Made by a program: the position numbers and the translations under genes. Below are positions 8,823 through 61,029 of a stretch of DNA of 64,000 bases, piece by piece; position 1 is the stretch's first letter; each line of letters starts with the position of its first letter. The notes beneath the pieces are model-generated. The model was not told the DNA's origin. It saw only the letters and a program-made list of their open reading frames with translations, and did no database searches. Source of the DNA: Escherichia phage Cyrano; the sequence record OV696614; one strand, written 5' to 3'.

Positions 8823-9089
8823 CTGTCTCGAATCCCTCTTTATTAGTATAAGTTGTCTTATTGTACCCTACCAAACGTTTATATGCATTGTTATGTATTA
8901 TTTTGATTTTCAATATTACCTCCTAGAACGAAGGGTAGATTTCAAAAAACGCATCCTCAATGATTCCATACCTACTATGTATGGAATCATTACTGAAAAT
9001 GAGTTACTTTTACTCTTGATCCTATAAGAATCTATGCCTAATATACTGTTTACTTATACAGTGCATCGGCGTAACTCGGTGATTGTCAT

Positions 9090-14756: not shown

Positions 14757-17700
14757 ATGAAAGCACTGATGGTTCGAACTGACTTCTCACTTGGGGAGTC
14801 GGCTCTAAAAGCAGAAAACGCGGTGAAGATTGCCAGAGAAGCTGGCTACACCGCTGTAATTTCAGCAGATAGCATGAATATTGCGAGTGTTATTCCACTA
14901 CAACGTGCCGCTGGTGACGACATGGCGGTTATTTGTGGTGTGAAACTAAATATCGTTGATGATCCCACATACGAGCACCGGGCTAAACTTGCTAAAGAAT
15001 CTATGAGATGTATGGAATCATTAGAGCGGGGACGTAACTACTCGTTTACCGCTCTAATTAAAAATGAGCAAGGATATCGCGACATCTGCGAACTAATGAC
15101 GGCGGCCAACACACGAGAACAGTTCTACTTTGTACCGCGTCTCTCGCTCGAACAGTTGGTTTCTACATATGCCAAAGGCAACATCATCCTGCTTACTTCC
15201 GACATCGGTAGCGTGTTCCAACGCAACGATTTTGCAAAAATCATAAGCACACTGATTACAGCGGGTGGAAAAGACAACTTCTATAGTGTGGTTTATCCGC
15301 ACCCTACCCCATTCTACGACCAGATTAACGTCCGGGCGATGAAAGTCGCCAGCGCATTGAAAATAGAGCCAGTGGCGTTCTATCCCGCTTATTACGAATC
15401 GATCGACGATGCAGACATTAAAGACATTGCGCACATGGTTACGAACAACATCAAAATCGACCAGCCGCATCGTCTGCGTATCCCCCACCAGCGAGATAAC
15501 GCCATCAATGGTCGTCGCCATCTCCTTGAGGCGCTTAAAGCCTTCTCCGTTCGCATGGATGTGCCGGTAACAGCTGCAATGGCCTCAACAACGCAGGACT
15601 CCATTATCGATGCCTGCACATGGCGCTGGCATGAATTGCCACCAGCACTGCCCAAGATGGCAGACGACGAACCTGCAACGCTGATGAAACTGGCTGTTGC
15701 AGGGCTGCGTAAACGTCTTACCACAAAAGAGTTTGGATACACACCACCTGCTTCTGAGAACAGGGTTTATGTTGAGCGGCTAAAGTACGAAATGGACACG
15801 CTGACTCGCCTGGGATTCTGTGGTTACTTCCTGATGGTACGCGATCTGATGAATCACAGCCGTGAAACTGGCATTCCTGTCGGGCCTGGTCGTGGTTCCT
15901 CTGCCGGTTCTCTGGTGGCGTGGTGCATAGGCATAACCAACGTCGACCCAATCCGTCACGGTCTTCTGTTTGAGCGTTTCATCAACCCTGAGCGTCTCGA
16001 CTTGCCGGATGCGGACTTGGACTTCAGCCAGGCACGTCGCCATGAGGTGATCGAGTATCTGAATGAACGCTACGGCGAAGATTACGTTGCAGGCATTCCG
16101 AACTTCACCTATCTGGGCGCGGCATCTGCACTACGTGACACCGCTCGTATTTATGGTGTGGAGTCCGCAGATATGGCGGTATCAAAAGAACTGAAGAACG
16201 TCGAGGATGATAGCCTTCCATTGGAAGAGCTGCGCGAACAACTGGCAAGTCTCGACAAATACGCAACAAAATATCCTGATGCATTCAATGCAGCCTGCAA
16301 GTTACAAAGCCTTATGCGTGGCTTTGGTAGACATGCGGCAGGGATGATCGTAGCAGGTGTTCCTCTGACAGAACGTACACCGGTTGAGCGCCGTGGTGAC
16401 GCGCGTTGTATCGCATTTGACAAGCGTTACTGCGAGGCTATGGGCCTAATTAAGCTGGACGTGCTTGGCCTGGCAACTCTCGATTTGCTCGATAGTGCAA
16501 AACGCTACATCAAAGAGAGTACCGGGGAAGACATCAATCTCGACGCTATCCCACTGGACGATCGCAAGGTTCTGGATGGGTTCGCTGCAGGGTACACGCA
16601 GGGCGTATTCCAGCTGGAGTCCGGCCCCATGCGTAAGTTGCTTAAAGATCTGGGCGGTGGCATCGAGCCAATGAGCTTCAAGACCGTTGTCGCCACGACC
16701 GCACTCTTCCGACCAGGCCCGATCCAATCCGGCATGTTGGACGACTATGTCTCCGTGGCCAAAGGCTTCATGGCTCCACATTCAATTCATCCGCGTCTTG
16801 AGGAAGTCACCCGGGAGACTAATGGTGTTTTGCTCTATCAGGAACAAATCATGCAAAGTTCCCGAGTACTTGCCGGGTTCTCTATGGCCGAAGCAGACGC
16901 TCTGCGTTCCGCTATCGGTAAAAAGAACATGGATAAGATGAAAGCGATCGGCAGCGATTTTGTAGAACGAGCACAAGCAGGCTGGGTGACACTGTCACTC
17001 AAAAATGGAGGTACTGTAGAGGTTCACAAACACGCAAAACTGGATTGCTCAGACGGTAAGCGTAGAAGCTACAGCGAGGCTATTAGTGACGGCATAGACT
17101 ACGTGGAGATCGTCTCTGAACAAGAAGGTCTCAGTAAGGAAAAAGCCCAAGAAATATGGGACGCCTTTGAGAAGTTCGGTGGATATGCCTTCAACAAATC
17201 ACACAGTGTTGCTTATTCTTTAATCAGTTATCAGTCTATGTGGCTAAAGACGCACTACCCTGCTGAGTTCTTCGCAGCTGCGCTCACCATTCTGGGCGAG
17301 GATAAGCATCAGGGGCTGGTGAAGGATGCGCTGACCTATGGCATTCGCGTATTGCCACCAGACGTTAATGTGTCATCTAACCGAATTGAGATCCGCACAC
17401 TCGAAGACGGCAGTCAGGCACTGTATGCGCCATTCTCTGCTGTGAAAGGCTGTTCTGAAAATGGTTGTCAGGCAATTATGCGTGCGCGTGAGAAAGTTGG
17501 TGGCAAATTCGAGTCAGTGGCACAATTCGATGAAGCGGTCGAGAAGCGTGCATGTAACAGTCGTGTACGCGAGTCGCTTCATAAAGTAGGGGCTTTTGCG
17601 TCAATTGAGCCAGGCAGTCTGCCAGCAACTGATCCTGAACGACTGCGCGACCAGGCTGAGCTGATGGGCAATCTCATCATTGACGCTGTTAAAGCATCAC

Positions 17701-18263
17701 GTCCGTTCGAAATGAATCCTAAGCGTTCTGCCGAAATCAACGTACTCATGACACGTATGGCGGCTGAAATGGGCTTGGGTGAGGAGTTGATACGCCCGAC
17801 TATTGGTATTAAACCCAAAATCATGATCATTCTGGACAATGCGAACGGCAATGACGCTCGTACCGGCTACTTCATGGAGAACGGATACGACGACTTTAAG
17901 GCAAAACTACTGACAGTTGGAGATCTGCGCATGGGCGATCTTTATGTCACGGGTGTTTGTAAGAAGGTTAAGGACAAAGAGAAAGACTATACCAAAGACG
18001 AGATAGGCCAGTTCACAGACTTTATGCGGGAAGAAATTAATCTTGTACGACCAACCTACATTTTGACGTGTGGTAGTCGTTCAACCGCACTATTTAACAA
18101 TAAGAGTAAACCATCAGATCTGATTGGTCGTAAGGAGTACTTCCCAGAGCTTGATGCAACCGTCTTCTACGGATTTAACCCGAATATCCTGTACTTCCGA
18201 CCGGAAGAAGGAGAGCGACTGGAGGCCATTCTGGCTGATATCGCGGAGACAATAAATAAGTAA
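14757..18263 (+). CDS. dnaE: DNA polymerase III alpha subunit (DnaE-type, family C)
   Basis: 1168 aa; GPGRGSSAGSLVAWCIGIT palm motif; N-terminal PHP-like region lacks the usual His motif. Confidence 0.85.
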   Translation: MKALMVRTDFSLGESALKAENAVKIAREAGYTAVISADSMNIASVIPLQRAAGDDMAVICGVKLNIVDDPTYEHRAKLAKESMRCMESLERGRNYSFTALIKNEQGYRDICELMTAANTREQFYFVPRLSLEQLVSTYAKGNIILLTSDIGSVFQRNDFAKIISTLITAGGKDNFYSVVYPHPTPFYDQINVRAMKVASALKIEPVAFYPAYYESIDDADIKDIAHMVTNNIKIDQPHRLRIPHQRDNAINGRRHLLEALKAFSVRMDVPVTAAMASTTQDSIIDACTWRWHELPPALPKMADDEPATLMKLAVAGLRKRLTTKEFGYTPPASENRVYVERLKYEMDTLTRLGFCGYFLMVRDLMNHSRETGIPVGPGRGSSAGSLVAWCIGITNVDPIRHGLLFERFINPERLDLPDADLDFSQARRHEVIEYLNERYGEDYVAGIPNFTYLGAASALRDTARIYGVESADMAVSKELKNVEDDSLPLEELREQLASLDKYATKYPDAFNAACKLQSLMRGFGRHAAGMIVAGVPLTERTPVERRGDARCIAFDKRYCEAMGLIKLDVLGLATLDLLDSAKRYIKESTGEDINLDAIPLDDRKVLDGFAAGYTQGVFQLESGPMRKLLKDLGGGIEPMSFKTVVATTALFRPGPIQSGMLDDYVSVAKGFMAPHSIHPRLEEVTRETNGVLLYQEQIMQSSRVLAGFSMAEADALRSAIGKKNMDKMKAIGSDFVERAQAGWVTLSLKNGGTVEVHKHAKLDCSDGKRRSYSEAISDGIDYVEIVSEQEGLSKEKAQEIWDAFEKFGGYAFNKSHSVAYSLISYQSMWLKTHYPAEFFAAALTILGEDKHQGLVKDALTYGIRVLPPDVNVSSNRIEIRTLEDGSQALYAPFSAVKGCSENGCQAIMRAREKVGGKFESVAQFDEAVEKRACNSRVRESLHKVGAFASIEPGSLPATDPERLRDQAELMGNLIIDAVKASRPFEMNPKRSAEINVLMTRMAAEMGLGEELIRPTIGIKPKIMIILDNANGNDARTGYFMENGYDDFKAKLLTVGDLRMGDLYVTGVCKKVKDKEKDYTKDEIGQFTDFMREEINLVRPTYILTCGSRSTALFNNKSKPSDLIGRKEYFPELDATVFYGFNPNILYFRPEEGERLEAILADIAETINK

Positions 18264-20762: not shown

Positions 20763-21791
20763 ATGTCTAAGACATTACTTGATTTGCTTAACAAAACTCG
20801 TGAAGACATTGCCGCCAAACGTGGCAACAACGTTGATCTGACTCGCTTAAAAGACGGCGTCAACTATATCCGCATCTTCCCGAATAAAGACGACCCAAAC
20901 GGTAAGTTCTTCCAGACTTTCGGTATGCACTACGTTAAGTATCAGAACGAGGAAGGTAAAGAAGCAACCAACGCTTATATTTGTGAGCAACATACTCACG
21001 GTCGCGCTTGTCAGCTATGCGAAATGGTGATGGAAGGTCGCGCTCGTCACAAGGGTAACAAAGCAATGGAAGAACGCATCGGTCAAATGCGTGCCACTCC
21101 TCGCTACCTGGTCAACGGCATTCTTTCTGCTCGTGAGGATTTCGCAGATGCTGAGAAATGCCAGTTAATCGAGCTGCCGTCTACTGTATTCGATGATATC
21201 TGCAAAGCAATCACCGAAGACATCGCTGATGATATCGGCAATCCACTGAGCAAAGAGGAAGGCTACGCATTCCTGATTAAACGTACTGGCTCTGGTCGCG
21301 ATACCAAATATGACGTCTCGCCTAAGCGTAAAGTCTACAAAGGCGATATCGAAGATAAATTCTGGAACACCCAGCATGATCTGATCGCATACGCAAATCA
21401 GGCTGATGAAACTCGTCTTCTGTCGACAGTTCGCACTATGGGTCGTCTGATTGGCATCGCTGCACCAACTGCCGCAGCATCTGCACCAGCAATTTCCTCA
21501 ACCGCGAAAACATCGGCTGCGGCACTACCTGGATTTGGCTCTGTCACTGGTCATACAGAAGGAGCGACGGCTGTAGCAACCGCGCACACACCGGCTTCTG
21601 AACCAACCAGTCTGGTTGATGAAGAAATCCTCCGTGCCGTTGAAACTGAATTTAAACCAGAGGCAAGTTCCGCTGCCGTTGCCGTATCAGTCAAAGAGTC
21701 TGAAGCAGTCGCAGCGACATCTGTAGCAACCGCATCTGCGACGGAAGATGAAGGTCTGGATGACCTACTGAGAGAGCTGGACTCTCTGTAA
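20763..21791 (+). CDS. single-stranded DNA-binding protein, T4 gp32-like
   Basis: 342 aa; IRIFPNKDDP resembles gp32 N-terminal block; zinc motif CEQHTHGRACQLC; Ala/Ser-rich acidic C-terminal tail. Confidence 0.7.
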   Translation: MSKTLLDLLNKTREDIAAKRGNNVDLTRLKDGVNYIRIFPNKDDPNGKFFQTFGMHYVKYQNEEGKEATNAYICEQHTHGRACQLCEMVMEGRARHKGNKAMEERIGQMRATPRYLVNGILSAREDFADAEKCQLIELPSTVFDDICKAITEDIADDIGNPLSKEEGYAFLIKRTGSGRDTKYDVSPKRKVYKGDIEDKFWNTQHDLIAYANQADETRLLSTVRTMGRLIGIAAPTAAASAPAISSTAKTSAAALPGFGSVTGHTEGATAVATAHTPASEPTSLVDEEILRAVETEFKPEASSAAVAVSVKESEAVAATSVATASATEDEGLDDLLRELDSL

Positions 21792-23064: not shown

Positions 23065-25404
23065 ATGGCAAAAGGAAAATCCGCACTGGCACTTGCTCTG
23101 AAAAAGAAAATCGGTAGCAACGACGAAATTCAGAAAGTAACTCATTGGATTGACACAGGCTTTCCTCCGTTAAACAAAGCTATTTCCGGTCGTTACGATG
23201 GCGGTTTCCCATGTGGTCGTATCGTAGAAGTATTCGGGCCACCAAGCGCGGGGAAATGTGTTACCGCAGACACCATGCTGCTGACGGAGCGTGGAATGGT
23301 AACAGTGAAAGAACTGTTTGAGATTGAGGGGCACAAAGCAACATGCACTACTCGCGATGTAGAGCATAACGTTGGACTCATCAATGAAAATGGCGTGATA
23401 GAGAAGACCTCACACCTGACATGGAACAACCGTCGCAAATTCAAGCGTATTAAGCTGGCATCAGGCGGTTATATCGAGGCTACGTTCCGTCACCCAATCC
23501 GTGTGGTTGACGACTTAGGTAATGTCGTCTGGCGACATGCTGAAAAAATCAGTGTAGGCGACACGATTCCTTCAATGGTTGGCACACATCAATTCGGCGA
23601 TCAGCACCTGGATGCCAATATCGCAAAACTGATGGGCTATTTAATTGCTGACGGATACGTGGCCTCTGAAAATTCAGTGAATTTTTCTAACACAGATCCT
23701 TTCATCAAGGATGAGTACTACCGCCTCATTTCGCTGGTATCAGACAAGATGCCAGTTACGAGAAAACATAACGGCTCGGAAGACCATGTGCTGTTTAGCA
23801 AAGAGGTGCGTTCGCTGCTTTTTAAAGAGTATGGTCTGGAGTATGAGAAAGCTGCTGGCAAGCAGGTTCCGTTGAGTGTGCGTCGCGCCAATAGCGAGGC
23901 TCAAATTGCATTCCTTCGCGGCTACTTTGAGCTGGAATGCCACGTCAATGATGGTCGCTGCATTGAGGTTGTGAGCGCGAGTGGGCTGCTGCTACAGCAA
24001 ATTCGCCTCATGCTCCTGAATCTGGGGATTACGTCAACTATCTCTGAAAAACACGTCGCGGGTTATGAAAATACATATTACCGGCTGTCATTCAGTGGCT
24101 CTAATTACGACCTTTTTCTGTCAACGATTGGTTTCGAATCTCCGGCACGTTTATCAGTGGCAACCAAACGGGACATTGGTTTTGACCGCACTTACTCAGG
24201 CTATGTTCCGCACATCAGCGGCTTAGTGAAATCACTCTACGAGTCGCTCACCAAGACCACCCGTGAAGACTACGCTCTGGTAGACCACGTTATTGGCCGC
24301 GGCGATCGTGTCGGAATAGACAAACTGCGAGAAATCTATGTCTCCTTCATTGGCAGAAAGAATCGTTTTAACGAGCATCTGTTTGCACAACTGGCAGCGG
24401 TAATTGGCTCTAACTTGTTCTACGACGAAGTCGTGGCTATTGAGGAAGGTGAAGCACCAACGTTCGACGTAGCGATGCCGGAAACACACTCTTTCTGGTC
24501 TAACGGGATTATCAGCCACAACACATTCCTTGCAACAGCAGCGATGATCTCCGCTCAAAAACAAGATGGTCTGGCGGTATTCCTCGATCATGAAAACAGT
24601 TTTGACGTTGGCCTGGCTGTAGCCAATGGCCTGAACGCAGATGAGGATGACGGTCAGTGGGTATACAAGCAGCCAGATACCTTCGAAGACTCTGTAGAGT
24701 TGATCGGCACAATACTTAAATTGGTTCGTGATGAAGAGCTTATCCCCGAATCAGCACCTATCTGTATCGTGGCTGACTCTCTTGCGTCTATGGTTCCGAA
24801 CTCCAAAGCCGAGAAGTTCGAAAAGATGGCTGAAGGCACTGCCAAAGACAAAGATCAGCTAAACATGAACGACAATACGGCACTGGCTCGTGCGACGAGT
24901 GCGAACTTCCCTACTCTGGCTTTGTGGGCACGCAAATACAACGCCTGCATCATCTTCTTGAATCAGGTTCGCACAAAAATCGGTGTAATGTTTGGCGACC
25001 CTACTACGTCGCCAGGTGGAGATTCACCGAAGTTTTACGCTTCTGTGCGCATCCGTCTCGGTGCATCGGTGATGAAGGATGGGAAAGAGAAGATCGGCCA
25101 GGACGTAGGCGCAGAATGCATCAAAAACAAAGTTGCACCACCGTATGGCAAATGCACCTGGAAATTCTACTTCGATCCTACTCGTGGCCTCGACGTTATC
25201 GAGTCGCTCGTCGAGTACATGCTGGAAGAAGGATACCTGCCAAAGAACGCCAGCGGGCGAGTTGAAATTGGTGACAAGAAATACACCAAATCGCAGATCG
25301 TCGACATGTATCGGGAGAAGCCATTAGCAGAAATCATTGCTGCGTTACAGGCGATAGATGACCGACGAGAGAAGACATCACCAACAGAAGAACTAGAAGA
25401 TTAA
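23065..25404 (+). CDS. recA: RecA-like recombinase interrupted by an intein
   Basis: 779 aa; extein GRIVEVFGPPSAGK..TFLATAAMISAQ resembles the RecA P-loop region GRIVEIYGPESSGKTT; 422-aa insertion inside the Walker A motif. Confidence 0.85.
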   Translation: MAKGKSALALALKKKIGSNDEIQKVTHWIDTGFPPLNKAISGRYDGGFPCGRIVEVFGPPSAGKCVTADTMLLTERGMVTVKELFEIEGHKATCTTRDVEHNVGLINENGVIEKTSHLTWNNRRKFKRIKLASGGYIEATFRHPIRVVDDLGNVVWRHAEKISVGDTIPSMVGTHQFGDQHLDANIAKLMGYLIADGYVASENSVNFSNTDPFIKDEYYRLISLVSDKMPVTRKHNGSEDHVLFSKEVRSLLFKEYGLEYEKAAGKQVPLSVRRANSEAQIAFLRGYFELECHVNDGRCIEVVSASGLLLQQIRLMLLNLGITSTISEKHVAGYENTYYRLSFSGSNYDLFLSTIGFESPARLSVATKRDIGFDRTYSGYVPHISGLVKSLYESLTKTTREDYALVDHVIGRGDRVGIDKLREIYVSFIGRKNRFNEHLFAQLAAVIGSNLFYDEVVAIEEGEAPTFDVAMPETHSFWSNGIISHNTFLATAAMISAQKQDGLAVFLDHENSFDVGLAVANGLNADEDDGQWVYKQPDTFEDSVELIGTILKLVRDEELIPESAPICIVADSLASMVPNSKAEKFEKMAEGTAKDKDQLNMNDNTALARATSANFPTLALWARKYNACIIFLNQVRTKIGVMFGDPTTSPGGDSPKFYASVRIRLGASVMKDGKEKIGQDVGAECIKNKVAPPYGKCTWKFYFDPTRGLDVIESLVEYMLEEGYLPKNASGRVEIGDKKYTKSQIVDMYREKPLAEIIAALQAIDDRREKTSPTEELED
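23257..24522 (+). mobile_element. Intein with LAGLIDADG homing endonuclease domain
   Basis: Begins with Cys right after GK of the P-loop, ends SHN followed by Thr that completes GKT; LAGLIDADG-like blocks LMGYLIADGYV and FLRGYFELECHV. Confidence 0.8.
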
Positions 25405-35947: not shown

Positions 35948-38263
35948 ATGATAAGCATCGTAAAACGTAACGGCCAAACAGAGCCGTTATCCGAAGAAAA
36001 ATACAACCGCGTCGTAATGTATGGCGTAGAAGGCATTCGTGGTGTAAGCGCATCCGCTGTAGCAATGGGAGCTGCGGCCAGCATTTTTGATGGGATTACC
36101 ACCAGCCAGTTGCATGAGGCTTTGGTTAAATCTGCCGCTGATTTGATCTCACCAGAAGCACCAAATTACTCACAGGTGGCTGCCCGCCTGAACATTTTTA
36201 AAATCCGCAAAGATGCCTTCGGTCGTTACGACTATCCGAACTTCTACCAACACATTGTCAAGAACGTTAACAAGGGCGTTTATGACAAGGATTTGCTGAC
36301 ACATTATTCGTTTGAAGAGATCGAAGAACTCGGCAATTACATTAAGCCGAAACGTGACGATCTTTTTGGCTATGCAGCTACGGTGCAGTTGCAAAGCAAA
36401 TACCTCGTTCAAAACCGTGTTACTGGTGAGATTCATGAGGGGCCGCAACATATCTATATGCTGGTAGGCATGTGTCTGTTCCAGAATTGGGAAGACGACT
36501 GCGCTGGCAAAACACGTATGGAGATGGTCAAAGGTTTCTATGACGTTACAAGTACGTTCAAACTGTCTCTGCCCACACCAATCATGGCCGGCGTCCGTAC
36601 TCCAACCCGTCAGTTCTCCAGTTGTGTGCTGATTGAGTCTGGCGATAGTCTGAAAGGGATTAGTGCAGCTTCAGCCGCAATTATCGACTACGTTTCACGT
36701 CGTGCTGGAATTGGTATTGGTTTTGGCCGTATCCGTGCGCTGGGCAGCGAGATCCGCAATGGTGAAGCCACCCATACTGGAGTTATTCCATTCCTGAAGC
36801 ATTTCCAGACGGCTGTTAAATCTTGTTCGCAAGGTGGTGTTCGTGGTGGCGCAGCAACAGCGTTTTACCCGATCTGGCATCTTGAAGTTGAAAGTCTGCT
36901 GGTGGTGAAAAATAACCGTGGTATTGATGAAAACCGCGTTCGCCATCTTGATTACGGCGTCATGAGTAACCGTCTAATGTACCGTCGACTCGTCAGAAGC
37001 GAGAACATCACTCTGTTCAGCCCGCATGATGTGCCTGATATGTACGAAGCCTTCTTCACAGACCAGGAGCTGTTTGAAAAGCTGTACCATAAATACGAAG
37101 CCGATGATTCAATTCGCAAGAAGTCAGTACCTGCCATTGAGCTGTTCTCATCTCTGATGCAGGAACGAGCGTCCACGGGCCGAATTTATATTGCGAACGT
37201 CGATCATATTAACGAGCATGGCGCTTTCATTCCCGCTCTTGCACCTGTTCGCCAGTCAAACCTGTGCATGGAGATCACTCTACCCACTCGTCCACTGGCA
37301 TTTACCGACGACCCGAACGGTGAGATCGCGCTATGCACTTTATCCGCTTTTAACCTCGGAGCCATCCGTTCACTGGAGTCTCTTAAAGAGGTGGCGTTCT
37401 ATGCCGTTGCTGCACTGGATTCGTTACTGGATTATCAAGACTATCCGATGGAGGCAGCCGAAGTGCCTGCCAAAGCTCGTCGTAGCTTGGGAATTGGTGT
37501 AACCAACTTTGCTTATTACCTGGCAAAGAATGGCGTTCGTTATTCTGATACCGCTGGCAATAAACTGGTGCATGAAACGTTCGAAGCTATCCAGTATTAC
37601 CTTCTTGATGCCAGCTGCCGACTTGCTGAAGCAAAAGGTGAGTGTGACTGGTTTGAGCAGACCAAGTACGCAATTGGTCAGTTGCCGATCGACCATTACC
37701 GTTCTTCATTAGACGAAAGTGGCGAAACCAACTTTGAGTTAAAGATGCCGTGGGAAGAACTGCGTGAACGTATTGCAAAATACGGCCTTCGCAACTCCAC
37801 ACTGACGGCACAAATGCCATGCGAGACTTCCAGCCAGATCACTAATTCCACCAACGGCATCGAACCGCCTCGTGGACCGGTGTCGGTGAAATCTTCTAAG
37901 GACGGCATCGTTAAGATGGTCGTGCCTGAGTTTGAAAAACTGAAGGAACAGTATGAATACCTGTGGGATATGCCGGACAACCGCGGCTATCTGACAAAGG
38001 TGGCGATCATCCAGAAGTTCTTTGACCAGGCTATTTCAGCCAATACCAACTATGACCCTTCTCGCTTTGAAGGCGATAAAGTCCCAATGATGACGCTACT
38101 GTCAGATTTGCTTCTCGCCTACAAGATGGGAGTTAAAACGCTTTACTACCACAACACCAGAGATGGGGCAGGAAAGCGTGATGACGACGAACCGCAGAAT
38201 CCACTGACGCAAGCTGTAGCCGTCGAGCCAGAAGATGAGTGCGACGGAGCCTGCAAAATCTGA
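35948..38263 (+). CDS. nrdA: Ribonucleoside-diphosphate reductase alpha subunit (class Ia)
   Basis: 771 aa; active-site block SNLCMEITLPT, C-terminal Cys pair ECDGAC; overall enterobacterial NrdA-like. Confidence 0.9.
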   Translation: MISIVKRNGQTEPLSEEKYNRVVMYGVEGIRGVSASAVAMGAAASIFDGITTSQLHEALVKSAADLISPEAPNYSQVAARLNIFKIRKDAFGRYDYPNFYQHIVKNVNKGVYDKDLLTHYSFEEIEELGNYIKPKRDDLFGYAATVQLQSKYLVQNRVTGEIHEGPQHIYMLVGMCLFQNWEDDCAGKTRMEMVKGFYDVTSTFKLSLPTPIMAGVRTPTRQFSSCVLIESGDSLKGISAASAAIIDYVSRRAGIGIGFGRIRALGSEIRNGEATHTGVIPFLKHFQTAVKSCSQGGVRGGAATAFYPIWHLEVESLLVVKNNRGIDENRVRHLDYGVMSNRLMYRRLVRSENITLFSPHDVPDMYEAFFTDQELFEKLYHKYEADDSIRKKSVPAIELFSSLMQERASTGRIYIANVDHINEHGAFIPALAPVRQSNLCMEITLPTRPLAFTDDPNGEIALCTLSAFNLGAIRSLESLKEVAFYAVAALDSLLDYQDYPMEAAEVPAKARRSLGIGVTNFAYYLAKNGVRYSDTAGNKLVHETFEAIQYYLLDASCRLAEAKGECDWFEQTKYAIGQLPIDHYRSSLDESGETNFELKMPWEELRERIAKYGLRNSTLTAQMPCETSSQITNSTNGIEPPRGPVSVKSSKDGIVKMVVPEFEKLKEQYEYLWDMPDNRGYLTKVAIIQKFFDQAISANTNYDPSRFEGDKVPMMTLLSDLLLAYKMGVKTLYYHNTRDGAGKRDDDEPQNPLTQAVAVEPEDECDGACKI

Positions 38264-38324
38264 CATATGGTGGGGGATATCCCCACCTTCTCTTTGATTT
38301 GTAAGCCTTGTTTAAACACATAAG

Positions 38325-38340
38325 ATAACAACTTGTTTAA
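38325..38340. promoter_or_regulatory. Palindromic motif AAACAA-N-TTGTTT
   Basis: ataacaacttgtttaa about 30 nt upstream of the nrdB start. Confidence 0.4.
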
Positions 38341-38369
38341 ACCCACCAAAAAAGAAAAAGGAAAAACAC

Positions 38370-39512
38370 ATGTCATATTCAACGTTCCGTTTGGGTGCTA
38401 ATGATGCAACCAAAGAGCCTATGTTCCTCGGACAATCTGTCAACGTGGCACGTTACGATCAGCAAAAATACCGTGATTTTGAAAAGTTGATTGAACGTCA
38501 ATTGTCTTTCTTCTGGCGGCCGGAAGAAGTTGATATTTCGAGCGATCGTATCGACTTCAACACGAAGCTGCGGGACCACGAACGTCACATTTTTCTGAGC
38601 AATCTCCGTTATCAAACGTTACTCGATTCAGTTCAGGGACGTAGCCCAAATGCAACGCTGCTGCCGCTTATCTCTATTCCTGAACTGGAAACGTGGGTTG
38701 AAACATGGTCTTTCTCTGAGACTATCCATAGCCGCAGCTACACCCACATTATTCGTGGCATGGTGGACGATCCGAGCATTGTTTTTGACGGTATTGTTAC
38801 GGATGAAGAAATCATCAACCGAGCGATCAGTATCTCTGCTGAATATGACAGGCTTTATGGGATGACCTGCGAGCGCCAGTCGTTAGGTGAGAAAGAGTTT
38901 GAACGTCTGTACGTAAATGAATATGGCTGGGAGCCATACCCTTTGCATCGTCAGCTTTTCCGCACGTTGGTGTCCATTAATGCGCTTGAGGCGATCCGTT
39001 TCTATGTAAGTTTTGCATGTACGTTTGCCTTTGGCGAACGGAAGTTGCTTGAGGGTAACACCAAAATTATGCGCTTTATTGCCCGTGATGAAGCTCTGCA
39101 TTGCGAAGGAACTGAACGCATGATCCGCTTCATGCGTACCGGTCGCGAAGGTTTATTGTGGAAAGAGATTGCTGCTGATGAAGAAAACGTCATTTACGAC
39201 ACCATGAAATCAGTCGCCGAACAAGAAATGAACTGGGCAGACTATCTCTTCAAAGACGGTTCGATGATTGGTTTAAACGCGGATATTCTGAAGACCTATG
39301 TAAAATACCGAACCAATCTGGCTATGAATCGTCTTGGCCTGAAGGCTTTATTTCCAGAGGTTACCACCGATCCGCTGGTCTGGATGAACAAGTGGTTGTT
39401 AACCGACACACTGCAAATTGCACCACAAGAGGCAGAGCAAAGCACATATCTGGTAGGTCAGATCGATTCTACCGTGGATAAGGCTTCTCTAAGCCAGTTT
39501 GCTGACCTGTAA
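38370..39512 (+). CDS. nrdB: Ribonucleoside-diphosphate reductase beta subunit
   Basis: 380 aa; blocks [51 protein letters not shown] match my recollection of E. coli NrdB. Confidence 0.85.
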
Positions 39513-39589
39513 ACCGATACAAAGCATTATGTGGCCTGGCAACGCTGGGCCACAATGGATCACAAGAATTAAGAAGGAACAAAACTAGC

Positions 39590-40459
39590 ATGAACTTTAC
39601 CAAACTGACTGACCACCTGAAACTTGCCACCGATCGACTCATTGGATTTAAGCCAGAACCATATGAGTTGCATGAAGGTCATGGTGTAGCTACTGAAAGT
39701 ATTTACAAGATGGTCGATCAGTTTCATGAACTCTTCCAGCATCCGAGACGCGTTATGCCGACACCAGAGCTGCTTCGTCTCCGTGCAAGCCTGATTCATG
39801 AAGAAGCTGTAGTGGAAGGTATTCCAGCTGCAATGAATGGGGATATTGAGCAACTGCTGGATGCAATGGCCGACTTTTTATACGTTGGTGTTGGTACGAT
39901 GGTCGCCATCAAAGGTGGTATTTCTACCGGCATGACCTATTACACGCAGGAACAGAGCATTGATCGCTTTATGCAGACAATTTTTGTGCCTGGTAACACT
40001 GTTTTCGATGATATGGCAATGCCATTTCAGGAAGCTCGTGAGGCGTCATGTATGCTCGAAGAGCTGGCAGATAAACTTGAGAACAAGACTGTTAAGGATT
40101 CTGAGCTGATTCAGGAACTGCGCCGTGTCATGAACAAAATCTATGTGGCGTGCATGATGACCTATCGACTGGCTGATTTCCTCGGTATCAATGTAGTCGA
40201 GCTGGTTGGCGAAATTCATCGGTCTAACATGACAAAATTATGGCCTGCTGATGTTGAGGAACGTCGCCAGGCTGTGGCCAACTGCAAATACGACTCTTCA
40301 GATCTGGGATTCCGCCATGCTGATGGCACCGATAAGATGATCGGTTTTCGAATTTCCGATGGAAAGATTCTGAAGTCTCCAACCTATAGTGATGTCGATT
40401 TATCCTCCTTTGTTGAGCAAGCTAAAGCCTCAGCAATGTACGGAATGATCAAAAAATAA
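39590..40459 (+). CDS. hypothetical protein, possibly MazG-like NTP pyrophosphohydrolase
   Basis: 289 aa; acidic helical motif LIHEEAVVEGIPAAMNGDIEQLLDAMADFLYV resembles the MazG EExxE..D pattern; tentative. Confidence 0.4.
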   Translation: MNFTKLTDHLKLATDRLIGFKPEPYELHEGHGVATESIYKMVDQFHELFQHPRRVMPTPELLRLRASLIHEEAVVEGIPAAMNGDIEQLLDAMADFLYVGVGTMVAIKGGISTGMTYYTQEQSIDRFMQTIFVPGNTVFDDMAMPFQEAREASCMLEELADKLENKTVKDSELIQELRRVMNKIYVACMMTYRLADFLGINVVELVGEIHRSNMTKLWPADVEERRQAVANCKYDSSDLGFRHADGTDKMIGFRISDGKILKSPTYSDVDLSSFVEQAKASAMYGMIKK

Positions 40460-40629
40460 TTGTAGGTAGTTATCTATCTGTGTATATTTAACATGCGTAA
40501 TAAAACTCTGGAATGACTATTCGTTTTGGTGGCCTATGGCCACCATTTTTTTATCTGTCTGGTCTTGTTCTCTCAATGAATGTAAACTCACACGATGAAT
40601 AAGTAATTACTTATCTTTGTGAGGTTTTT

Positions 40630-41733
40630 GTGTCACTCCTTTTGAATCGAGAGCATACGAACGGTCAGGTAACAAACGCATCGTATGCAAAAGTTATTGA
40701 GACGGTGCTTAAAAGCGGCGTGCAGGCTGATGATCGCACAGGCACTGGCACTTTAAGCACCTGCTACGTTCCCTCTTACTACATGCTTACTGGTGGGACT
40801 GTGCCGCTTATTTCTGGAAAGGCGGTAAATCTTAAGCCACTACTTGTCGAACTTGAGTGGTATCTGAAAGGCACGGGCAACATCCAATTTCTCAAGGATA
40901 ACGGCGTTAAGATTTGGGATGCATGGGCCGATGAGAATGGCGATTTGGGGCCGGTTTACGGTAAGCAGTGGCGTCGATGGGAAGATACCCGCATCGTGAG
41001 CCATAGTGAATATCTGAGCAAGATCGCTACTTTCCGTGAACGCGGGTACAAAGTCGAGGGATACCTGGGTATCAGTGAAGATCGCGTAGTGCTGTCCCGT
41101 GAAATCGATCAGCTACAGCGTATTGTCGATACACTGCGCACGAACCCTACCGATCGTCGCATCATGCTTAACGCATGGAACGTAGGCGAGCTTGAGGATA
41201 TGAAACTGCCACCTTGCCACTTTGTCTTCTCTTTGTGGAGTCGTGAGCTGGATTTTGAAACCCGTTTAACGATGGCAACTGACATTGGTCTTCAACACAG
41301 TCGCCTCGGTTACGAGTCTATCTACACCAAGATGCTATACGATCTGGAGATGGACGGCAGTGTTACTGAAGCTGAACTGGATGAACTTGGAATCCCCAAA
41401 CGCATCCTCAACTCCTGCCTCGTACAGCGTAGCGTAGACACTTTTGTTGGTATGCCATTCAATATTGCTGGCTATGGCATTCTCACTCATTTTCTCGCGA
41501 AGATTACGGGTCACATGGCCGGTGCATTTGTGCATTTTGGCTTTGACGTGCATTTGTACAACAACCACATGGAAGGTGTGTGTGAGCTAATGAAACGACA
41601 GGCTCCAGAGCATTCAGATCCGGTCGTTATTTTCCCTCATGAATGGTCAGAGTTGGATGATTTCAAATGGGACGAGGTTTTAATTCTTGGCTATGACCCT
41701 CTACCGTGGATCAAGGTTCCAGTGGCGGTGTGA
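40630..41733 (+). CDS. Thymidylate synthase with internal insertion
   Basis: 367 aa; ThyA blocks DRTGTGTLS, DENGDLGPVYGKQWR, NAWNVGELE, PCH, GMPFNIAGY; about 100 extra residues. Confidence 0.85.
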   Translation: MSLLLNREHTNGQVTNASYAKVIETVLKSGVQADDRTGTGTLSTCYVPSYYMLTGGTVPLISGKAVNLKPLLVELEWYLKGTGNIQFLKDNGVKIWDAWADENGDLGPVYGKQWRRWEDTRIVSHSEYLSKIATFRERGYKVEGYLGISEDRVVLSREIDQLQRIVDTLRTNPTDRRIMLNAWNVGELEDMKLPPCHFVFSLWSRELDFETRLTMATDIGLQHSRLGYESIYTKMLYDLEMDGSVTEAELDELGIPKRILNSCLVQRSVDTFVGMPFNIAGYGILTHFLAKITGHMAGAFVHFGFDVHLYNNHMEGVCELMKRQAPEHSDPVVIFPHEWSELDDFKWDEVLILGYDPLPWIKVPVAV

Positions 41734-56980: not shown

Positions 56981-57274
56981 ATGTCTATTTTTAACCCAAT
57001 GAACCTTCAATACCGCAACATCAGTGTCTTGCGAATTAAGATAGTGTGTATAGGTTATGCATGCAAGTGCATAACTCTGTGGATAACTCAGGAAGGAAAA
57101 AGTAGCTTCCGCGCAATTTAGGCCAGACAAGGCTTTCGCAAAAGTCAACAGAGAGAAAAAATTTGTTAAAAATAACGTTTGTTGGAATTGTATATATTTA
57201 TGCCTTTCAATAGTTAGCATCTTATTAACATCTTTTTTAAGAGATAGAGTTCAAAAATATATAGCTTCAACATA

Positions 57275-57294
57275 TACTGTATGTGTATACAGTA
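57275..57294. promoter_or_regulatory. LexA (SOS) box
   Basis: tactgtatgtgtatacagta: perfect CTGT-N8-ACAG palindrome about 17 nt upstream of the humD-like start. Confidence 0.8.
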
Positions 57295-57310
57295 TTAAGA
57301 GGCGAGTATT

Positions 57311-57700
57311 ATGGGCTTCCCTTCTCCTGCGGCGGATTATGCTGAGAGCCGTATTTCTCTTGATCAGCAGATAATTAGACATCCTTCAGCGACCTACTTC
57401 ATGAGGGCAGCTGATAGTCATCATCGTGAGGGAATATTACAGGGTGCATTGCTGGTGGTCGATTCCTCACTTACCCCGGTTGATGGTTCTCTGCTTGTAT
57501 GCGCTCTGGATGGGGAATATCGCGTAAAAAGATACCGGAAGTACCCACGTCAGCATCTGGAGGATTTAAGAACCGGTAAGAAGGAAGCATTGCCAAAGGA
57601 TGACGATGGATGCACGGGCAGCAATGCCGTGTTTGGTGTGATCACTCACATTATCAACGACGCAAGAAGTGGCGAGTTTGATGATTGTCCCGTGATGTAG
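57311..57700 (+). CDS. humD: UmuD'-like protein (P1 HumD-like, pre-truncated)
   Basis: 129 aa beginning MGFPSPAADYAE, i.e. at the position of the UmuD Cys24-Gly25 cleavage site; S24 peptidase-like core. Confidence 0.8.
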   Translation: MGFPSPAADYAESRISLDQQIIRHPSATYFMRAADSHHREGILQGALLVVDSSLTPVDGSLLVCALDGEYRVKRYRKYPRQHLEDLRTGKKEALPKDDDGCTGSNAVFGVITHIINDARSGEFDDCPVM

Positions 57701-57712
57701 GAGAACTGATTA

Positions 57713-57736
57713 GGCGGTGCATTGCACCGCCTTTTT
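57713..57736. terminator. Bidirectional terminator between humD-like gene and mrp
   Basis: ggcggtgcattgcaccgcc hairpin followed by tttttat. Confidence 0.7.
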
Positions 57737-57737
57737 A

Positions 57738-58838
57738 TCACACTGCGCGGAATGCGATTTCGCCAGGTATTACTTCACCTTGCCAATACATTTGGGCAGC
57801 AACGCGATCTGCGAGGTCACGATAAATAGCCGTAAATTCGCTATCTGGACGACTAATAACGGTTGGTGTTCCGTTATCCAGATCTTCACGAAGAGAGATA
57901 TGAAGTGGCATTTGGCCTAACAACTGCGTGTTGTATTTCTCGGCCAGTTTCTGTGCGCCACCGGTGCCAAAAATTGGCTCGTGATGACCGCAGTTACTGC
58001 AAATATGCACACTCATGTTTTCGACGATACCCAGTACCGGCACTTCGACTTTTTCGAACATCACAATGCCTTTCTTCGCATCGATCAGCGCGATGTCTTG
58101 CGGCGTAGTTACCACAACCGCACCAGTTACAGGAATGTTCTGCGCCAGCGTCAACTGAATATCACCAGTGCCCGGCGGCATATCGAGAACGAGATAGTCC
58201 AGATCAGGCCACAGTGTTTCCTGCAACATCTGCATCAGCGCCTTGCTGGCCATCGGTCCACGCCACACCATCGCATTGTCGTCAGTGACCAGATAACCAA
58301 TTGAATTGGTTGCCAGGCCATGAGACATGATAGGTGCCATGTGAGTACCGTCAGGTGAGGTTGGACGTTGGTTTTCCGCGCCCAGCATGGTTGGAATTGA
58401 TGGCCCGTAGATATCGGCATCCAAAATACCAACTTTCGCACCTTCAGCCGCCAGCGCCAGCGCCAGGTTTACCGCCGTGGAGGATTTACCCACGCCGCCT
58501 TTACCGGAGCTGACCGCAATGATGTTCTTCACGCCATTAATGCCTGGTTGGTTTTTGACGCGCTTAAGCGTGGCAATGTTGTACGACAGCTTCCAGTCAA
58601 TAGCCTTTGCGCCAGTGATACGGAGCAGATCACCACTACATTGCTCTTTCAGATCTTCAAAAGGCTTATTCCACACGAAAGGCATGATTAGTTCGACATG
58701 CAGTGTGTCATCCATCAACGCAACATGGTGTAACGCTTTAAGCGTAGTCAGGTTGTGTTTCAGGGTTGGGTGCTGAAAATTAGCCAGCGTACCGGCTACC
58801 ATTGCTCTCAGGGCATCCGGCGATTTGGACTCGCTCAT
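57738..58838 (-). CDS. mrp: Iron-sulfur cluster carrier ATPase Mrp/ApbC
   Basis: 366 aa; P-loop SSGKGGVGKSST, CxxC motif ICSNCGHHEPIFG; enterobacterial Mrp-like; divergent from metG. Confidence 0.9.
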   Translation of the reverse strand: MSESKSPDALRAMVAGTLANFQHPTLKHNLTTLKALHHVALMDDTLHVELIMPFVWNKPFEDLKEQCSGDLLRITGAKAIDWKLSYNIATLKRVKNQPGINGVKNIIAVSSGKGGVGKSSTAVNLALALAAEGAKVGILDADIYGPSIPTMLGAENQRPTSPDGTHMAPIMSHGLATNSIGYLVTDDNAMVWRGPMASKALMQMLQETLWPDLDYLVLDMPPGTGDIQLTLAQNIPVTGAVVVTTPQDIALIDAKKGIVMFEKVEVPVLGIVENMSVHICSNCGHHEPIFGTGGAQKLAEKYNTQLLGQMPLHISLREDLDNGTPTVISRPDSEFTAIYRDLADRVAAQMYWQGEVIPGEIAFRAV

Positions 58839-58995
58839 CCCGTCTCCTTTATTTTAATTTGCGCAATTGTCGCCTTGTAGTGTACTCCAGCTACGACATT
58901 TAATCATTTATGAGAAATGCTGTTATCACATGGCAGACATAAGGCCATTTTGTTACTATCAAGCCCCTTTTCACTACAAAGAAGTAATGCCTACT

Positions 58996-61029
58996 ATGAC
59001 CCAAGTCGCGAAGAAAATTCTGGTGACGTGCGCGCTGCCGTACGCTAACGGCTCAATCCACCTCGGCCATATGCTGGAGCACATCCAGGCTGATGTCTGG
59101 GTTCGTTACCAGCGAATGCGCGGCCACGAGGTTAATTTCATCTGTGCCGACGATGCCCACGGTACGCCGATCATGCTGAAAGCACAGCAGCTTGGTATCA
59201 CACCGGAGCAGATGATTGGCGAAATGAGTCAGGAGCATCAGACTGATTTCGCAGGCTTTAACATCAGCTATGACAACTATCACTCGACGCACAGCGAAGA
59301 GAACCGTCAGTTGTCTGAGCTTATCTATACTCGCCTGAAAGAGAACGGTTTTATTAAAAACCGCACTATCTCTCAGTTGTACGACCCGGAAAAAGGCATG
59401 TTCCTGCCGGATCGTTTTGTGAAAGGCACCTGCCCGAAATGTAAAGCGCCAGATCAATACGGCGATAACTGTGAAGTCTGCGGCGCAACATATAGCCCGA
59501 CTGAATTGATCGAGCCGAAATCGGTGGTTTCTGGCGCTACCCCGGTAATGCGTGATTCCGAACACTTCTTCTTTGATCTGCCTTCTTTCAGCGAAATGTT
59601 GCAGGCATGGACCCGCAGCGGCGCGTTGCAGGAGCAGGTGGCAAACAAAATGCAGGAGTGGTTTGAATCTGGCCTGCAACAGTGGGATATCTCCCGCGAT
59701 GCGCCTTACTTCGGTTTTGAAATTCCGGACGCGCCGGGCAAATATTTCTACGTCTGGCTGGACGCGCCGATTGGCTACATGGGTTCCTTCAAGAATCTGT
59801 GCGACAAGCGCGGCGATACCACCAGCTTCGATGAATACTGGAAGAAAGACTCCACCGCCGAGCTGTACCACTTCATCGGTAAAGATATTGTTTACTTCCA
59901 CAGCCTGTTCTGGCCTGCCATGCTGGAAGGCAGCAACTTCCGCAAGCCGACCAACCTGTTTGTTCACGGCTATGTGACGGTGAACGGCGCGAAGATGTCC
60001 AAGTCTCGCGGCACCTTTATTAAAGCCAGCACCTGGCTGAATCATTTTGACGCTGACAGCCTGCGTTACTACTACACTGCGAAACTCTCTTCGCGCATTG
60101 ATGATATCGATCTCAACCTGGAGGATTTCGTTCAGCGCGTGAATGCCGATATCGTGAACAAAGTGGTTAACCTGGCCTCCCGTAATGCAGGCTTTATCAA
60201 CAAGCGTTTTGACGGCGTGCTGGCAAGCGAACTGGCTGACCCGCAACTGTACAAAACCTTTACTGATGCCGCTGAAGTGATTGGCGAAGCATGGGAAAGC
60301 CGTGAATTTGGTAAAGCTATCCGTGAAATCATGGCATTGGCTGACCTGGCTAACCGCTATGTCGATGAACAGGCTCCGTGGGTGGTGGCGAAGCAGGAAG
60401 GACGCGATGCCGATCTGCAGGCGATTTGCTCTATGGGCATTAACCTGTTCCGCGTGCTGATGACGTACCTGAAGCCGGTACTGCCGAAACTGACTGAACG
60501 TGCAGAAGCATTCCTGAATACAGAACTGACCTGGGATGGCATCCAGCAACCGTTGCTGGGCCATAAAGTGAATCCGTTCAAGGCACTGTATAACCGCATC
60601 GATATGAAGCAGGTTGAAGCACTGGTGGAAGCATCCAAAGAAGAAGTGAAAGCCACAGCCGCACCGGTAACTGGCCCACTGGCTGACGACCCGATTCAGG
60701 AAACTATCACCTTTGACGACTTCGCCAAAGTTGACCTGCGCGTGGCGCTGATTGAAAACGCAGAGTTTGTAGAAGGTTCTGACAAACTGCTACGCCTGAC
60801 GCTGGATCTCGGTGGTGAAAAGCGTAATGTCTTCTCAGGCATCCGTTCTGCTTATCCAGACCCACAGGCACTGATTGGTCGTCACACCATTATGGTGGCT
60901 AACCTGGCTCCGCGTAAAATGCGCTTCGGTATCTCCGAAGGCATGGTGATGGCTGCTGGCCCCGGCGGGAAAGATATCTTCCTGTTAAGCCCGGATGCTG
61001 GTGCTAAACCAGGCCACCAGGTTAAGTAA
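58996..61029 (+). CDS. metG: Methionyl-tRNA synthetase
   Basis: Start set at [26 protein letters not shown] (HIGH motif), KMSKS present, zinc-knuckle CPKC..CEVC, C-terminal tRNA-binding domain; 677 aa. Confidence 0.9.

What the first reader, a model, noticed from the sequence alone, without database searches (positions are those of the whole stretch)
57275..57700. Pre-truncated UmuD'-like gene (HumD-like) under a perfect LexA box
The 129-aa product begins at the residue corresponding to the UmuD autocleavage site (Cys24-Gly25), so it is made already in the activated UmuD' form. A perfect SOS box (TACTGTATGTGTATACAGTA) lies just upstream, and no umuC partner is adjacent. This matches the phage P1 humD arrangement and implies SOS-induced modulation of host translesion synthesis by the element.
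Basis: partly seen in the sequence, partly recalled or inferred. Interest (0 to 1): 0.55.

Follow-up and report, generated by a model that had tools for sequence, protein, structure and literature searches.

The report
Known HumD gene under LexA box
This is an ordinary, already catalogued copy of the phage P1-type humD gene, a ready-made "pre-cut" UmuD' subunit switched on by DNA damage, carried here by an SSU5-like phage-plasmid of E. coli.

Summary
ORF 57311-57700 (+) encodes 129 aa. Gly2 aligns with UmuD Gly25, and an in-frame TAA four codons upstream rules out an N-terminal arm. TACTGTATGTGTATACAGTA (57275-57294) matches the LexA consensus at 18/20 positions with perfect 8-bp arms, overlaps a -10-like hexamer, and never appeared in shuffled sequence. 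No umuC is present in the window.

The interpretation also holds, but the gene is already known. The protein is 91% identical to P1 HumD (dN/dS 0.05) and matches NCBIfam's HumD equivalog over its full length (220 bits, cutoff 120). Identical copies sit in public plasmid records. The window is an SSU5-like phage-plasmid, about 98% identical to E. coli pAVS0747-B.

Similarity to P1 starts at the LexA box and ends at the stop codon, so box and gene move together as a cassette. All 80 close relatives keep the box arms while its centre varies.

Two additions come from family comparison. The Ser/Lys dyad decays in divergent members. A C-terminal tail (EFDDCPVM) is conserved instead; it is absent from UmuD and resembles the SSB tip DFDDDIPF. 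That resemblance is an untested lead.

Low interest; already known.

The parts
57250..57255 (+). -35-like hexamer TTCAAA of the humD promoter
   Evidence: Consensus scan found TTCAAA-17 nt-TATACT, 9 of 12 matches. It is conserved in the SSU5-type upstream regions. Promoter activity was not tested.
57273..57278 (+). -10-like hexamer TATACT; its last four bases are the first four of the LexA box
   Evidence: The overlap with the box is read.
57275..57294 (+). LexA (SOS) box TACTGTATGTGTATACAGTA
   Evidence: 18/20 to the consensus. It is the only site in the window within 3 mismatches, and none occurred in 100 shuffles. A CTG-N10-CAG box lies 36-39 nt before the ATG in all 80 related viral loci, with arms kept and centre variable. 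The homologous P1 site is annotated as a LexA binding site.
57296..57298 (+). In-frame TAA stop that excludes any N-terminal extension
   Evidence: Read. The ORF list starts at 57311.
57297..57302 (+). Shine-Dalgarno-like AAGAGG, 8 nt before the ATG
   Evidence: Read.
57311..57700 (+). humD coding sequence (129 aa plus stop), a pre-truncated UmuD' analogue
   Evidence: dN/dS against P1 humD is 0.05.
57416..57418 (+). Codon for Ser36, equivalent to the UmuD Ser60 nucleophile position
   Evidence: Alignments. The position is Ser or Thr in close relatives but M/P/Y/R/A in divergent ones.
57527..57529 (+). Codon for Lys73, equivalent to UmuD Lys97
   Evidence: the K97A mutant chain 8gmt_B shows Ala at this position. 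The residue is replaced by R/W/S in divergent family members.
57674..57697 (+). HumD-family C-terminal tail EFDDCPVM (aa 122-129), absent from UmuD
   Evidence: Nearly invariant in 120 cluster representatives. It is retained as [EV]FDD-x-P down to 38-40% identity. Its function is unknown.
57712..57737 (+). Intrinsic-terminator-like hairpin (9-bp stem, 7 G-C pairs) plus T-run, between humD and the convergent apbC

Best explanation
The feature is a self-contained, SOS-controlled humD cassette: promoter, LexA operator, ribosome-binding site, 129-aa gene and terminator. It is carried by an SSU5-related phage-plasmid of E. coli.

In undamaged cells a host LexA dimer on 57275-57294 would cover the -10 hexamer and the transcription start, keeping the gene off. 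DNA damage activates RecA, LexA cleaves itself, and the gene is transcribed.

The product is made directly in the shape of UmuD', starting at the Gly that follows the UmuD cleavage site. It therefore skips the slow RecA-dependent processing step that normally delays activation of UmuD. By homology to P1 HumD (91% identical), it should dimerise and bind host UmuC and RecA filaments. It would then supply the accessory subunit of a Pol V-like translesion polymerase. That would help replication of damaged element and host DNA, at the cost of mutations.

Shown here: the anatomy, the orthology, purifying selection, conservation of the operator, and the absence of umuC. Inferred: LexA binding, induction, and partnership with UmuC.
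For: - Anatomy.
- UmuD' homology with Gly2 aligned to Gly25.
- 91% identity to P1 HumD and the same length.
- Full-length hit to the NCBIfam HumD equivalog, 219.8 bits against a cutoff of 120.
- PHROG 811 'UmuD-like protein', E = 3e-54.
- dN/dS 0.05 against P1 humD.
- DNA similarity to P1 runs only from the box to the stop codon.
- The box is statistically unexpected.
- The box is kept at a fixed distance in 80/80 related loci behind at least five unrelated upstream sequences, with variation confined mainly to its centre.
- It is also present upstream of N15 gp26 and phiKO2 gp23.
- No umuC in the window, nor in the RefSeq annotation of the roughly 98% identical plasmid.
- From my own knowledge of McLenigan et al. 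1999 (J Bacteriol 181:7005; not held in the library): HumD complements UmuD' functions in vivo, dimerises, and binds UmuC and RecA filaments.
Against: - Nothing functional was tested for this copy.
- The promoter call is a weak consensus match (9/12), and the scan found fewer promoter-like sites than shuffles of the region gave on average.
- The family carries a strongly conserved C-terminal tail that UmuD' lacks, so 'UmuD' substitute' may not be the whole function.
- From memory of McLenigan 1999, P1 HumD complemented well only from a high-copy plasmid, so its natural role may differ.
- About 24 of 57 more divergent family loci show no CTG-N10-CAG box within 120 nt upstream, so LexA control is common but not universal in the family.
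Confidence: 0.85

Rival explanations
1. HumD is more than, or other than, a UmuD' substitute. Its conserved C-terminal tail (EFDDCPVM) would act as a docking peptide that mimics the SSB C-terminal tip (DFDDDIPF). It would bring HumD, or HumD-UmuC, to SSB-binding proteins, or compete with SSB for them.
For: - The tail is nearly invariant in 120 cluster representatives and always ends the protein.
- An [EV]FDD-x-P-hydrophobic end persists down to 38-40% identity, while the catalytic dyad decays.
- The tail is absent from UmuD and from UmuD'-like genes that have a umuC directly downstream (L141, L143, L144, L155).
- The SSB partner-binding peptide is DFDDDIPF (PMC3936761).
- One family variant ends EFDDTPF (L126).
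Against: - The resemblance was noticed after the fact in a short acidic motif.
- In most members Pro is at position -3, not -2, and the last residue is Met/Ile rather than Phe.
- No binding or structural test was possible. The AlphaFold model was unusable (mean pLDDT 45).
- The tail could equally serve dimerisation, UmuC binding or protein stability.
Confidence: 0.1
2. The protein is an active S24 peptidase acting in trans, for example cleaving host UmuD, LexA or a phage repressor. This would follow from its keeping Ser36 and Lys73.
For: Ser36 and Lys73 align with UmuD Ser60 and Lys97. Position 36 is Ser or Thr in 119 of 121 close relatives, next to a highly variable position 35.
Against: In more divergent family members the nucleophile position is M, P, Y, R or A, and the Lys is R, W or S. 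The N-terminus and the tail stay conserved in those same members. Proteolysis is therefore not the function under selection across the family.
Confidence: 0.04
3. The ORF is a 5'-truncated remnant of a umuD gene left by recombination, with no function.
For: There is no umuC partner, and the gene lies at a junction with captured chromosomal-type genes (apbC, metG).
Against: - dN/dS against P1 humD is 0.05 at dS 0.8.
- The same Met-Gly-Phe-Pro-Ser-Pro start recurs across relatives from 38% to 100% identity.
- The gene has its own Shine-Dalgarno sequence, operator and terminator.
- A dedicated curated family model exists for it.
Confidence: 0.01

Closest known systems
Bacteriophage P1 HumD (humD, P1_gp103)
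   Same: 129 aa with 118 identical residues. Same Met-Gly start at the UmuD cleavage position and same C-terminal tail. A LexA box 36-39 nt before the ATG. No umuC. Carried by a plasmid prophage.
   Different: Different host element: an SSU5-like siphovirus-type phage-plasmid rather than P1. The flanks differ: no divergent lxr, no hot upstream, no phd-doc downstream. Here a convergent apbC follows a terminator. The box centre is GTGT rather than AAAT and the upstream promoter sequence is unrelated.
E. coli UmuD' (RecA-processed UmuD, accessory subunit of Pol V)
   Same: 44% identity over the whole UmuD' body, E = 7e-23 to the solved structure. Begins at the same Gly. Ser and Lys dyad residues are present. 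The operon is LexA-controlled.
   Different: It is made directly rather than by cleavage, so it has no 24-residue arm. It has a small insertion near residues 96-105 and a 10-residue C-terminal extension. It is not co-transcribed with umuC. It scores below the NCBIfam UmuD subfamily cutoff, 87 against 110 bits.
N15 gp26 and phiKO2 gp23 (UmuD-like proteins of linear plasmid prophages)
   Same: 68-73% identical. Same start and same tail. A LexA box lies upstream, the genes are orphans, and a terminator and a convergent gene follow.
   Different: Thr replaces Ser at the nucleophile position. phiKO2 has a divergent dinI and a second, partial box.
Plasmid and ICE UmuD homologues MucA, SamA, RumA
   Same: S24-fold accessory subunits of mobile-element translesion polymerases. 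They appear among the plasmid hits at 38-48% identity.
   Different: Those are full-length, need RecA-mediated cleavage, and sit in operons with their own UmuC-type polymerase gene (established knowledge; see also PMC7092418).

Membership tests
HumD family (NCBIfam NF051876, equivalog) | Full-length match to the curated family model above its cutoff | tested here: met
   219.8 bits against a cutoff of 120; residues 1-129 on profile positions 1-129.
HumD family (NCBIfam NF051876, equivalog) | Translation starts at the residue equivalent to UmuD Gly25, with no N-terminal arm | tested here: met
   Gly2 aligns with UmuD Gly25. In-frame TAA at 57296-57298. 117 of 121 family sequences have Met-Gly at this point.
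HumD family (NCBIfam NF051876, equivalog) | Orphan gene: no cognate umuC-type polymerase gene beside it | tested here: met
   Neighbours listed. No Y-family polymerase is annotated anywhere on the roughly 98% identical plasmid. The UmuC tblastn probe was negative in the window and positive in control loci.
HumD family (NCBIfam NF051876, equivalog) | Family-specific C-terminal extension ending EFDDCPV[MIL] | tested here: met
   Residues 122-129 are EFDDCPVM, nearly invariant in the family. This is my own descriptive criterion drawn from the alignments, not a published definition.
HumD family (NCBIfam NF051876, equivalog) | Functionally replaces UmuD' (restores SOS mutagenesis; binds UmuC and RecA filaments) | not testable with these tools
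   Known for P1 HumD from McLenigan et al. 1999 (title cited; full text not held). Inferred here from 91% identity.
UmuD / autoproteolytic S24 peptidases (LexA-like) | Peptidase S24 domain | tested here: met
   Pfam PF00717, 37.9 bits against a cutoff of 23.3. PDB UmuD' E = 7e-23.
UmuD / autoproteolytic S24 peptidases (LexA-like) | Ser-Lys catalytic dyad | tested here: inconclusive
   Ser36 and Lys73 are present in this copy, but both positions are replaced in divergent family members. Activity was not tested.
UmuD / autoproteolytic S24 peptidases (LexA-like) | Cleavable N-terminal segment with an Ala/Cys-Gly site | tested here: not met
   No residues precede Gly2 other than the initiator Met. 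The protein also scores below the NCBIfam UmuD subfamily cutoff, 87 against 110 bits.
LexA (SOS) regulon of Enterobacteria | CTGT-N8-ACAG operator placed over the promoter or transcription start | tested here: met
   Box at 57275-57294 overlaps the -10-like hexamer at 57273-57278. The box is conserved in relatives.
LexA (SOS) regulon of Enterobacteria | LexA binding and damage-inducible expression | not testable with these tools
   This needs EMSA or ChIP and reporter assays. The only support is that a paper calls humD a LexA-regulated SOS gene (PMC9603915).

The most novel reading that the evidence does not exclude
The orphan HumD family may be defined less by being 'pre-cut UmuD' than by its conserved C-terminal tail ([EV]FDD-x-P-hydrophobic end). 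The tail resembles the SSB C-terminal tip DFDDDIPF. It is missing from UmuD and from UmuD'-like genes that keep a umuC partner. If the tail docks onto SSB-tip-binding proteins of the host replisome or repair machinery, HumD would be a phage and plasmid device for hijacking or rerouting those hubs during SOS, not just a shortcut to Pol V.
Probability: 0.1. Interest if true: 0.55.

Novelty: already known. Interest (0 to 1): 0.12.

Why it matters
For this window the finding matters little. The gene, its truncated form, its LexA box and its lack of a umuC partner were described for P1 in 1999, and the family has a curated NCBI model that names this protein. The gene is also common. The same humD-apbC junction occurs in 98 of 5,426 complete E. 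coli genomes, and PLSDB holds 148 plasmids at 99% or higher protein identity plus 460 at 90-95%, the range of the P1-type copies. SOS-inducible, pre-activated translesion accessory subunits therefore ride on many clinical phage-plasmids. That is relevant to stress-induced mutagenesis under quinolone or other DNA-damaging treatment. The one open point is what the conserved C-terminal tail does.

Tried and rejected
- **Structure prediction.** AlphaFold2 on a 101-sequence family alignment gave an unusable model (mean pLDDT 45.3, pTM 0.34). The alignment is too shallow, with all members at least 67% identical. I ran no fold search and draw no structural claim about the tail.
- **Primary paper.** McLenigan et al. 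1999 (PMC94175) is not held in the library. Its content is cited from memory and from other papers' descriptions.
- **Phage-plasmid speciality.** I considered that HumD might be specific to plasmid prophages (P1, N15, phiKO2, SSU5-like). I rejected this because integrative phages (HK639, HK140, BTP1, MG40) and many chromosomal loci carry it.
- **Trans-acting protease.** I considered this because Ser36 and Lys73 are kept. I downgraded it because both positions decay in divergent members.
- **Database entries of 148-223 aa.** These might have shown a real N-terminal arm. Most still have Met-Gly at the junction (one has Met-Asp, three lack the Met), and none of the extra residues resemble the UmuD arm. 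They look like over-called starts.
- **gp32-like protein.** I checked whether the element's own gp32-like ssDNA-binding protein carries an SSB-tip-like end. It does not; it ends ...LLRELDSL.
- **Heterology index.** I did not compute one for the box because I could not retrieve the Lewis et al. 1994 matrix. I used mismatch counts, shuffles and comparison with an experimentally used LexA site instead.
- **Window-versus-plasmid comparison.** The first attempts failed because the locus files were not yet exported. It was done later.

Full report
**What is in the sequence**

The ORF at 57311-57700 (+) starts with ATG and encodes 129 aa. Four codons upstream, in frame, is TAA (57296-57298), so no longer product can be made from this frame. 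AAGAGG (57297-57302) sits 8 nt before the ATG.

TACTGTATGTGTATACAGTA lies at 57275-57294. Its 8-bp arms are perfect inverted repeats. It differs from the idealised LexA consensus TACTGTATATATATACAGTA at two central positions. It is the only site in the 64-kb window within three mismatches of that consensus, and no such site occurred in 100 dinucleotide-preserving shuffles. The bare core CTGT-N8-ACAG occurs twice in the window, which is no more than chance gives for the core alone.

The box differs at only two central positions from TACTGTATGAGCATACAGTA, a sequence used experimentally as a LexA-binding site (PMC3950707). A sigma-70-like promoter (TTCAAA at 57250, 17-nt spacer, TATACT at 57273-57278) ends inside the box. 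A strong hairpin plus T-run at 57712-57737 follows the stop codon. The unit is therefore a complete small transcription unit.

**What the protein is**

- Pfam assigns it to Peptidase_S24.
- Its best solved relatives are UmuD' and UmuD, E = 7e-23. Query Gly2 aligns with residue 1 of UmuD' and with Gly25 of full-length UmuD.
- It is 91% identical to P1 HumD (118/129 residues, same length), 68% to N15 gp26, 73% to phiKO2 gp23 and 44% to E. coli UmuD.
- It matches NCBIfam NF051876, 'HumD family translesion DNA polymerase' (an equivalog model), end to end with 219.8 bits against a cutoff of 120. It falls below the UmuD subfamily cutoff, 87 against 110 bits.
- PHROGs calls it UmuD-like.
- Against P1 humD, dS is 0.80 and dN is 0.042, giving dN/dS 0.05. 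It is a gene under strong purifying selection, not a remnant.

**Where it sits**

A 2-kb piece around the gene is 100% identical to several E. coli plasmids of 100-120 kb. RefSeq annotates the gene there as 'S24 family peptidase' or 'HumD family translesion DNA polymerase'. In total, 98 of 5,426 complete E. coli genomes carry the same humD-apbC junction.

The window is collinear with plasmid pAVS0747-B over 60,078 of 64,000 bases, at 97-99% identity in all large blocks but one, a 1-kb block at 84%. That plasmid encodes RepA, ParB-like proteins, DnaE, NrdAB, thymidylate synthase, DfrA51, tRNAs, terminase, portal, capsid and a long tail module. It is therefore a phage-plasmid. SSU5 is the phage-plasmid that carries dfrA51, and pJN2-26 is its relative (PMC12217456). 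pJN2-26 matches the window's recombinase region at 72% identity.

No Y-family polymerase is annotated on the plasmid. Every window ORF of 250 aa or more has another identity. The same probe found umuC at 42-50% identity immediately downstream of UmuD-like genes in four control loci.

**The cassette and its operator**

DNA similarity to P1 (about 85%) begins a few bases before the LexA box and stops at the stop codon. Both flanks are unrelated. In P1 the homologous 20-mer is annotated as the LexA binding site of lxr and humD.

In 80 viral-contig loci encoding proteins 91-100% identical, every one has a CTG-N10-CAG box 36-39 nt before the ATG. These sit behind at least five unrelated upstream sequences. 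There are 16 box sequences, which differ mainly in the central bases while the TACTGT/ACAGTA arms are kept. N15 and phiKO2 also have boxes.

In 57 more divergent loci from one-genome-per-species sampling of Enterobacterales, 33 have one or two boxes within 120 nt and 24 have none. LexA control is therefore frequent but not universal in the family.

This pattern is what selection for LexA contact positions predicts. It is the strongest evidence available without an experiment that the operator works.

**Mechanism**

LexA bound at 57275-57294 would occlude the -10 hexamer and the start site. SOS induction removes LexA, and the product appears already in the UmuD' form. That bypasses the RecA-filament-dependent cleavage which normally gates UmuD activity.

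[quoted passage not shown] From my own knowledge of McLenigan et al. 1999 (not held in the library), HumD restores mutagenesis and UV survival in UmuD'-deficient backgrounds. The same paper reports that it dimerises and binds UmuC and RecA filaments.

For this copy, the anatomy, orthology, selection and operator conservation are shown. LexA binding, inducibility and partnership with host UmuC are inferred.

**What family comparison adds**

The family is large: 555 database clusters at E ≤ 1e-10, mostly 126-130 aa, across Escherichia, Citrobacter, Klebsiella, Enterobacter, Salmonella, Kluyvera and others. It occurs in plasmid prophages, integrative phages and chromosomes. Longer database entries of 148-223 aa look like over-called starts. 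Most keep Met-Gly at the junction, and none of the extra residues resemble the UmuD arm.

In close relatives the nucleophile position is Ser or Thr and the Lys is kept. In members at 38-58% identity the nucleophile position is M, P, Y, R or A and the Lys is R, W or S. Self-cleavage chemistry is evidently not what selection preserves.

What is preserved everywhere is the MGFPSPA start and a C-terminal extension ending EFDDCPVM. Variants include EFDDIPVI, EFDDTPF and VFDDTPCI. UmuD lacks this extension, and so do four UmuD'-like genes that have umuC directly downstream (L141, L143, L144, L155).

The tail resembles the SSB partner-binding tip DFDDDIPF (PMC3936761). This resemblance was noticed after the fact in a short acidic motif and could not be tested. 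The structure prediction failed (pLDDT 45). I record it as the most novel reading not excluded, at about 10% probability.

**Verdict**

Both the observation and the interpretation are correct. However, the feature is an already named and curated gene family, and this exact protein is in public records. Interest is low and the novelty class is 'already known'.

Noticed in passing
window 9044-9063 (+), upstream of ORF 9090-10193: A second LexA-box-like site, TACTGTTTACTTATACAGTG, lies 27 nt before the ATG of the element's tyrosine recombinase ('integrase'). It starts where a promoter-like TTGATC-17-TAATAT (9018-9046) ends. CTG-N10-CAG is kept in relatives down to about 72% identity (Klebsiella pJN2-26: TACTGTATATAAACACAGTA), with the centre varying. 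The recombinase may be SOS-regulated.
   Followed up: partly
window 8959-8991: A lox-like perfect inverted repeat: AATGATTCCATAC, a 7-nt spacer, then GTATGGAATCATT, about 100 bp upstream of the recombinase gene. The arms are invariant and the spacer differs among the four related elements aligned. It is a candidate recombinase target site, or else a hairpin.
   Followed up: partly
window 57738-58838 (-) and about 58990-61029 (+): The phage-plasmid carries intact-looking copies of the housekeeping genes apbC (mrp) and metG (methionyl-tRNA synthetase). They are only 80-90% identical to the chromosomal E. coli locus, which every one of 5,426 genomes matched at that level. This looks like a captured chromosomal segment from another enterobacterium, directly abutting the humD terminator.
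   Followed up: partly
window 57674-57697 (HumD aa 122-129): The family-wide C-terminal tail EFDDCPVM resembles the SSB C-terminal tip DFDDDIPF. It is absent from UmuD and from UmuD'-like genes that have a umuC partner.
   Followed up: partly
L144 2501-2845 and L143 2501-2806 (genome-contig loci): Pre-truncated UmuD'-like genes starting MGFPSPA, 115-117 aa, without the HumD tail, lie directly upstream of a umuC homologue. The contigs are MAGs labelled Chitinophagaceae and Proteobacteria. So 'born-cleaved' UmuD' also exists with a cognate polymerase.
   Followed up: no
window 57284-57285 (centre of the LexA box): Among otherwise nearly identical SSU5-type upstream regions, the two central box positions carry three alleles (TG, CA, TA). 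That is 2 of the 6 variable sites in 57210-57340 among the seven closest sequences. This may be tuning of operator strength, or neutral variation at non-contact positions.
   Followed up: partly
database proteins P0023, P0024, P0031, P0046, P0048, P0063, P0070, P0071, P0082, P0088: HumD-family entries of 148-223 aa, some representing hundreds to more than 1,000 member sequences, appear to have over-called start codons reading through the operator region. Most keep Met-Gly at the junction (P0048 has Met-Asp; P0063, P0071 and P0088 lack the Met).
   Followed up: partly
L007 1436-1455 (phiKO2): The best LexA box upstream of phiKO2 gp23 (TACTGTATGCATATACAGTA) lies just left of the interval annotated as the lexA binding site (1454-1474). 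That interval covers only a partial second box. Several Klebsiella and Kluyvera relatives have two tandem boxes at about 64 and 40 nt.
   Followed up: no
window 14757-18263, 20763-21791, 23065-25404, 35948-41733: The element carries an unusually full replication and nucleotide-metabolism set: its own dnaE, a gp32-like ssDNA-binding protein, a 779-aa LAGLIDADG endonuclease ORF, nrdAB, thyA and dfrA51. UmuD-type proteins are known to contact Pol III subunits, so a link between HumD and the element's own DnaE is conceivable but untested.
   Followed up: no
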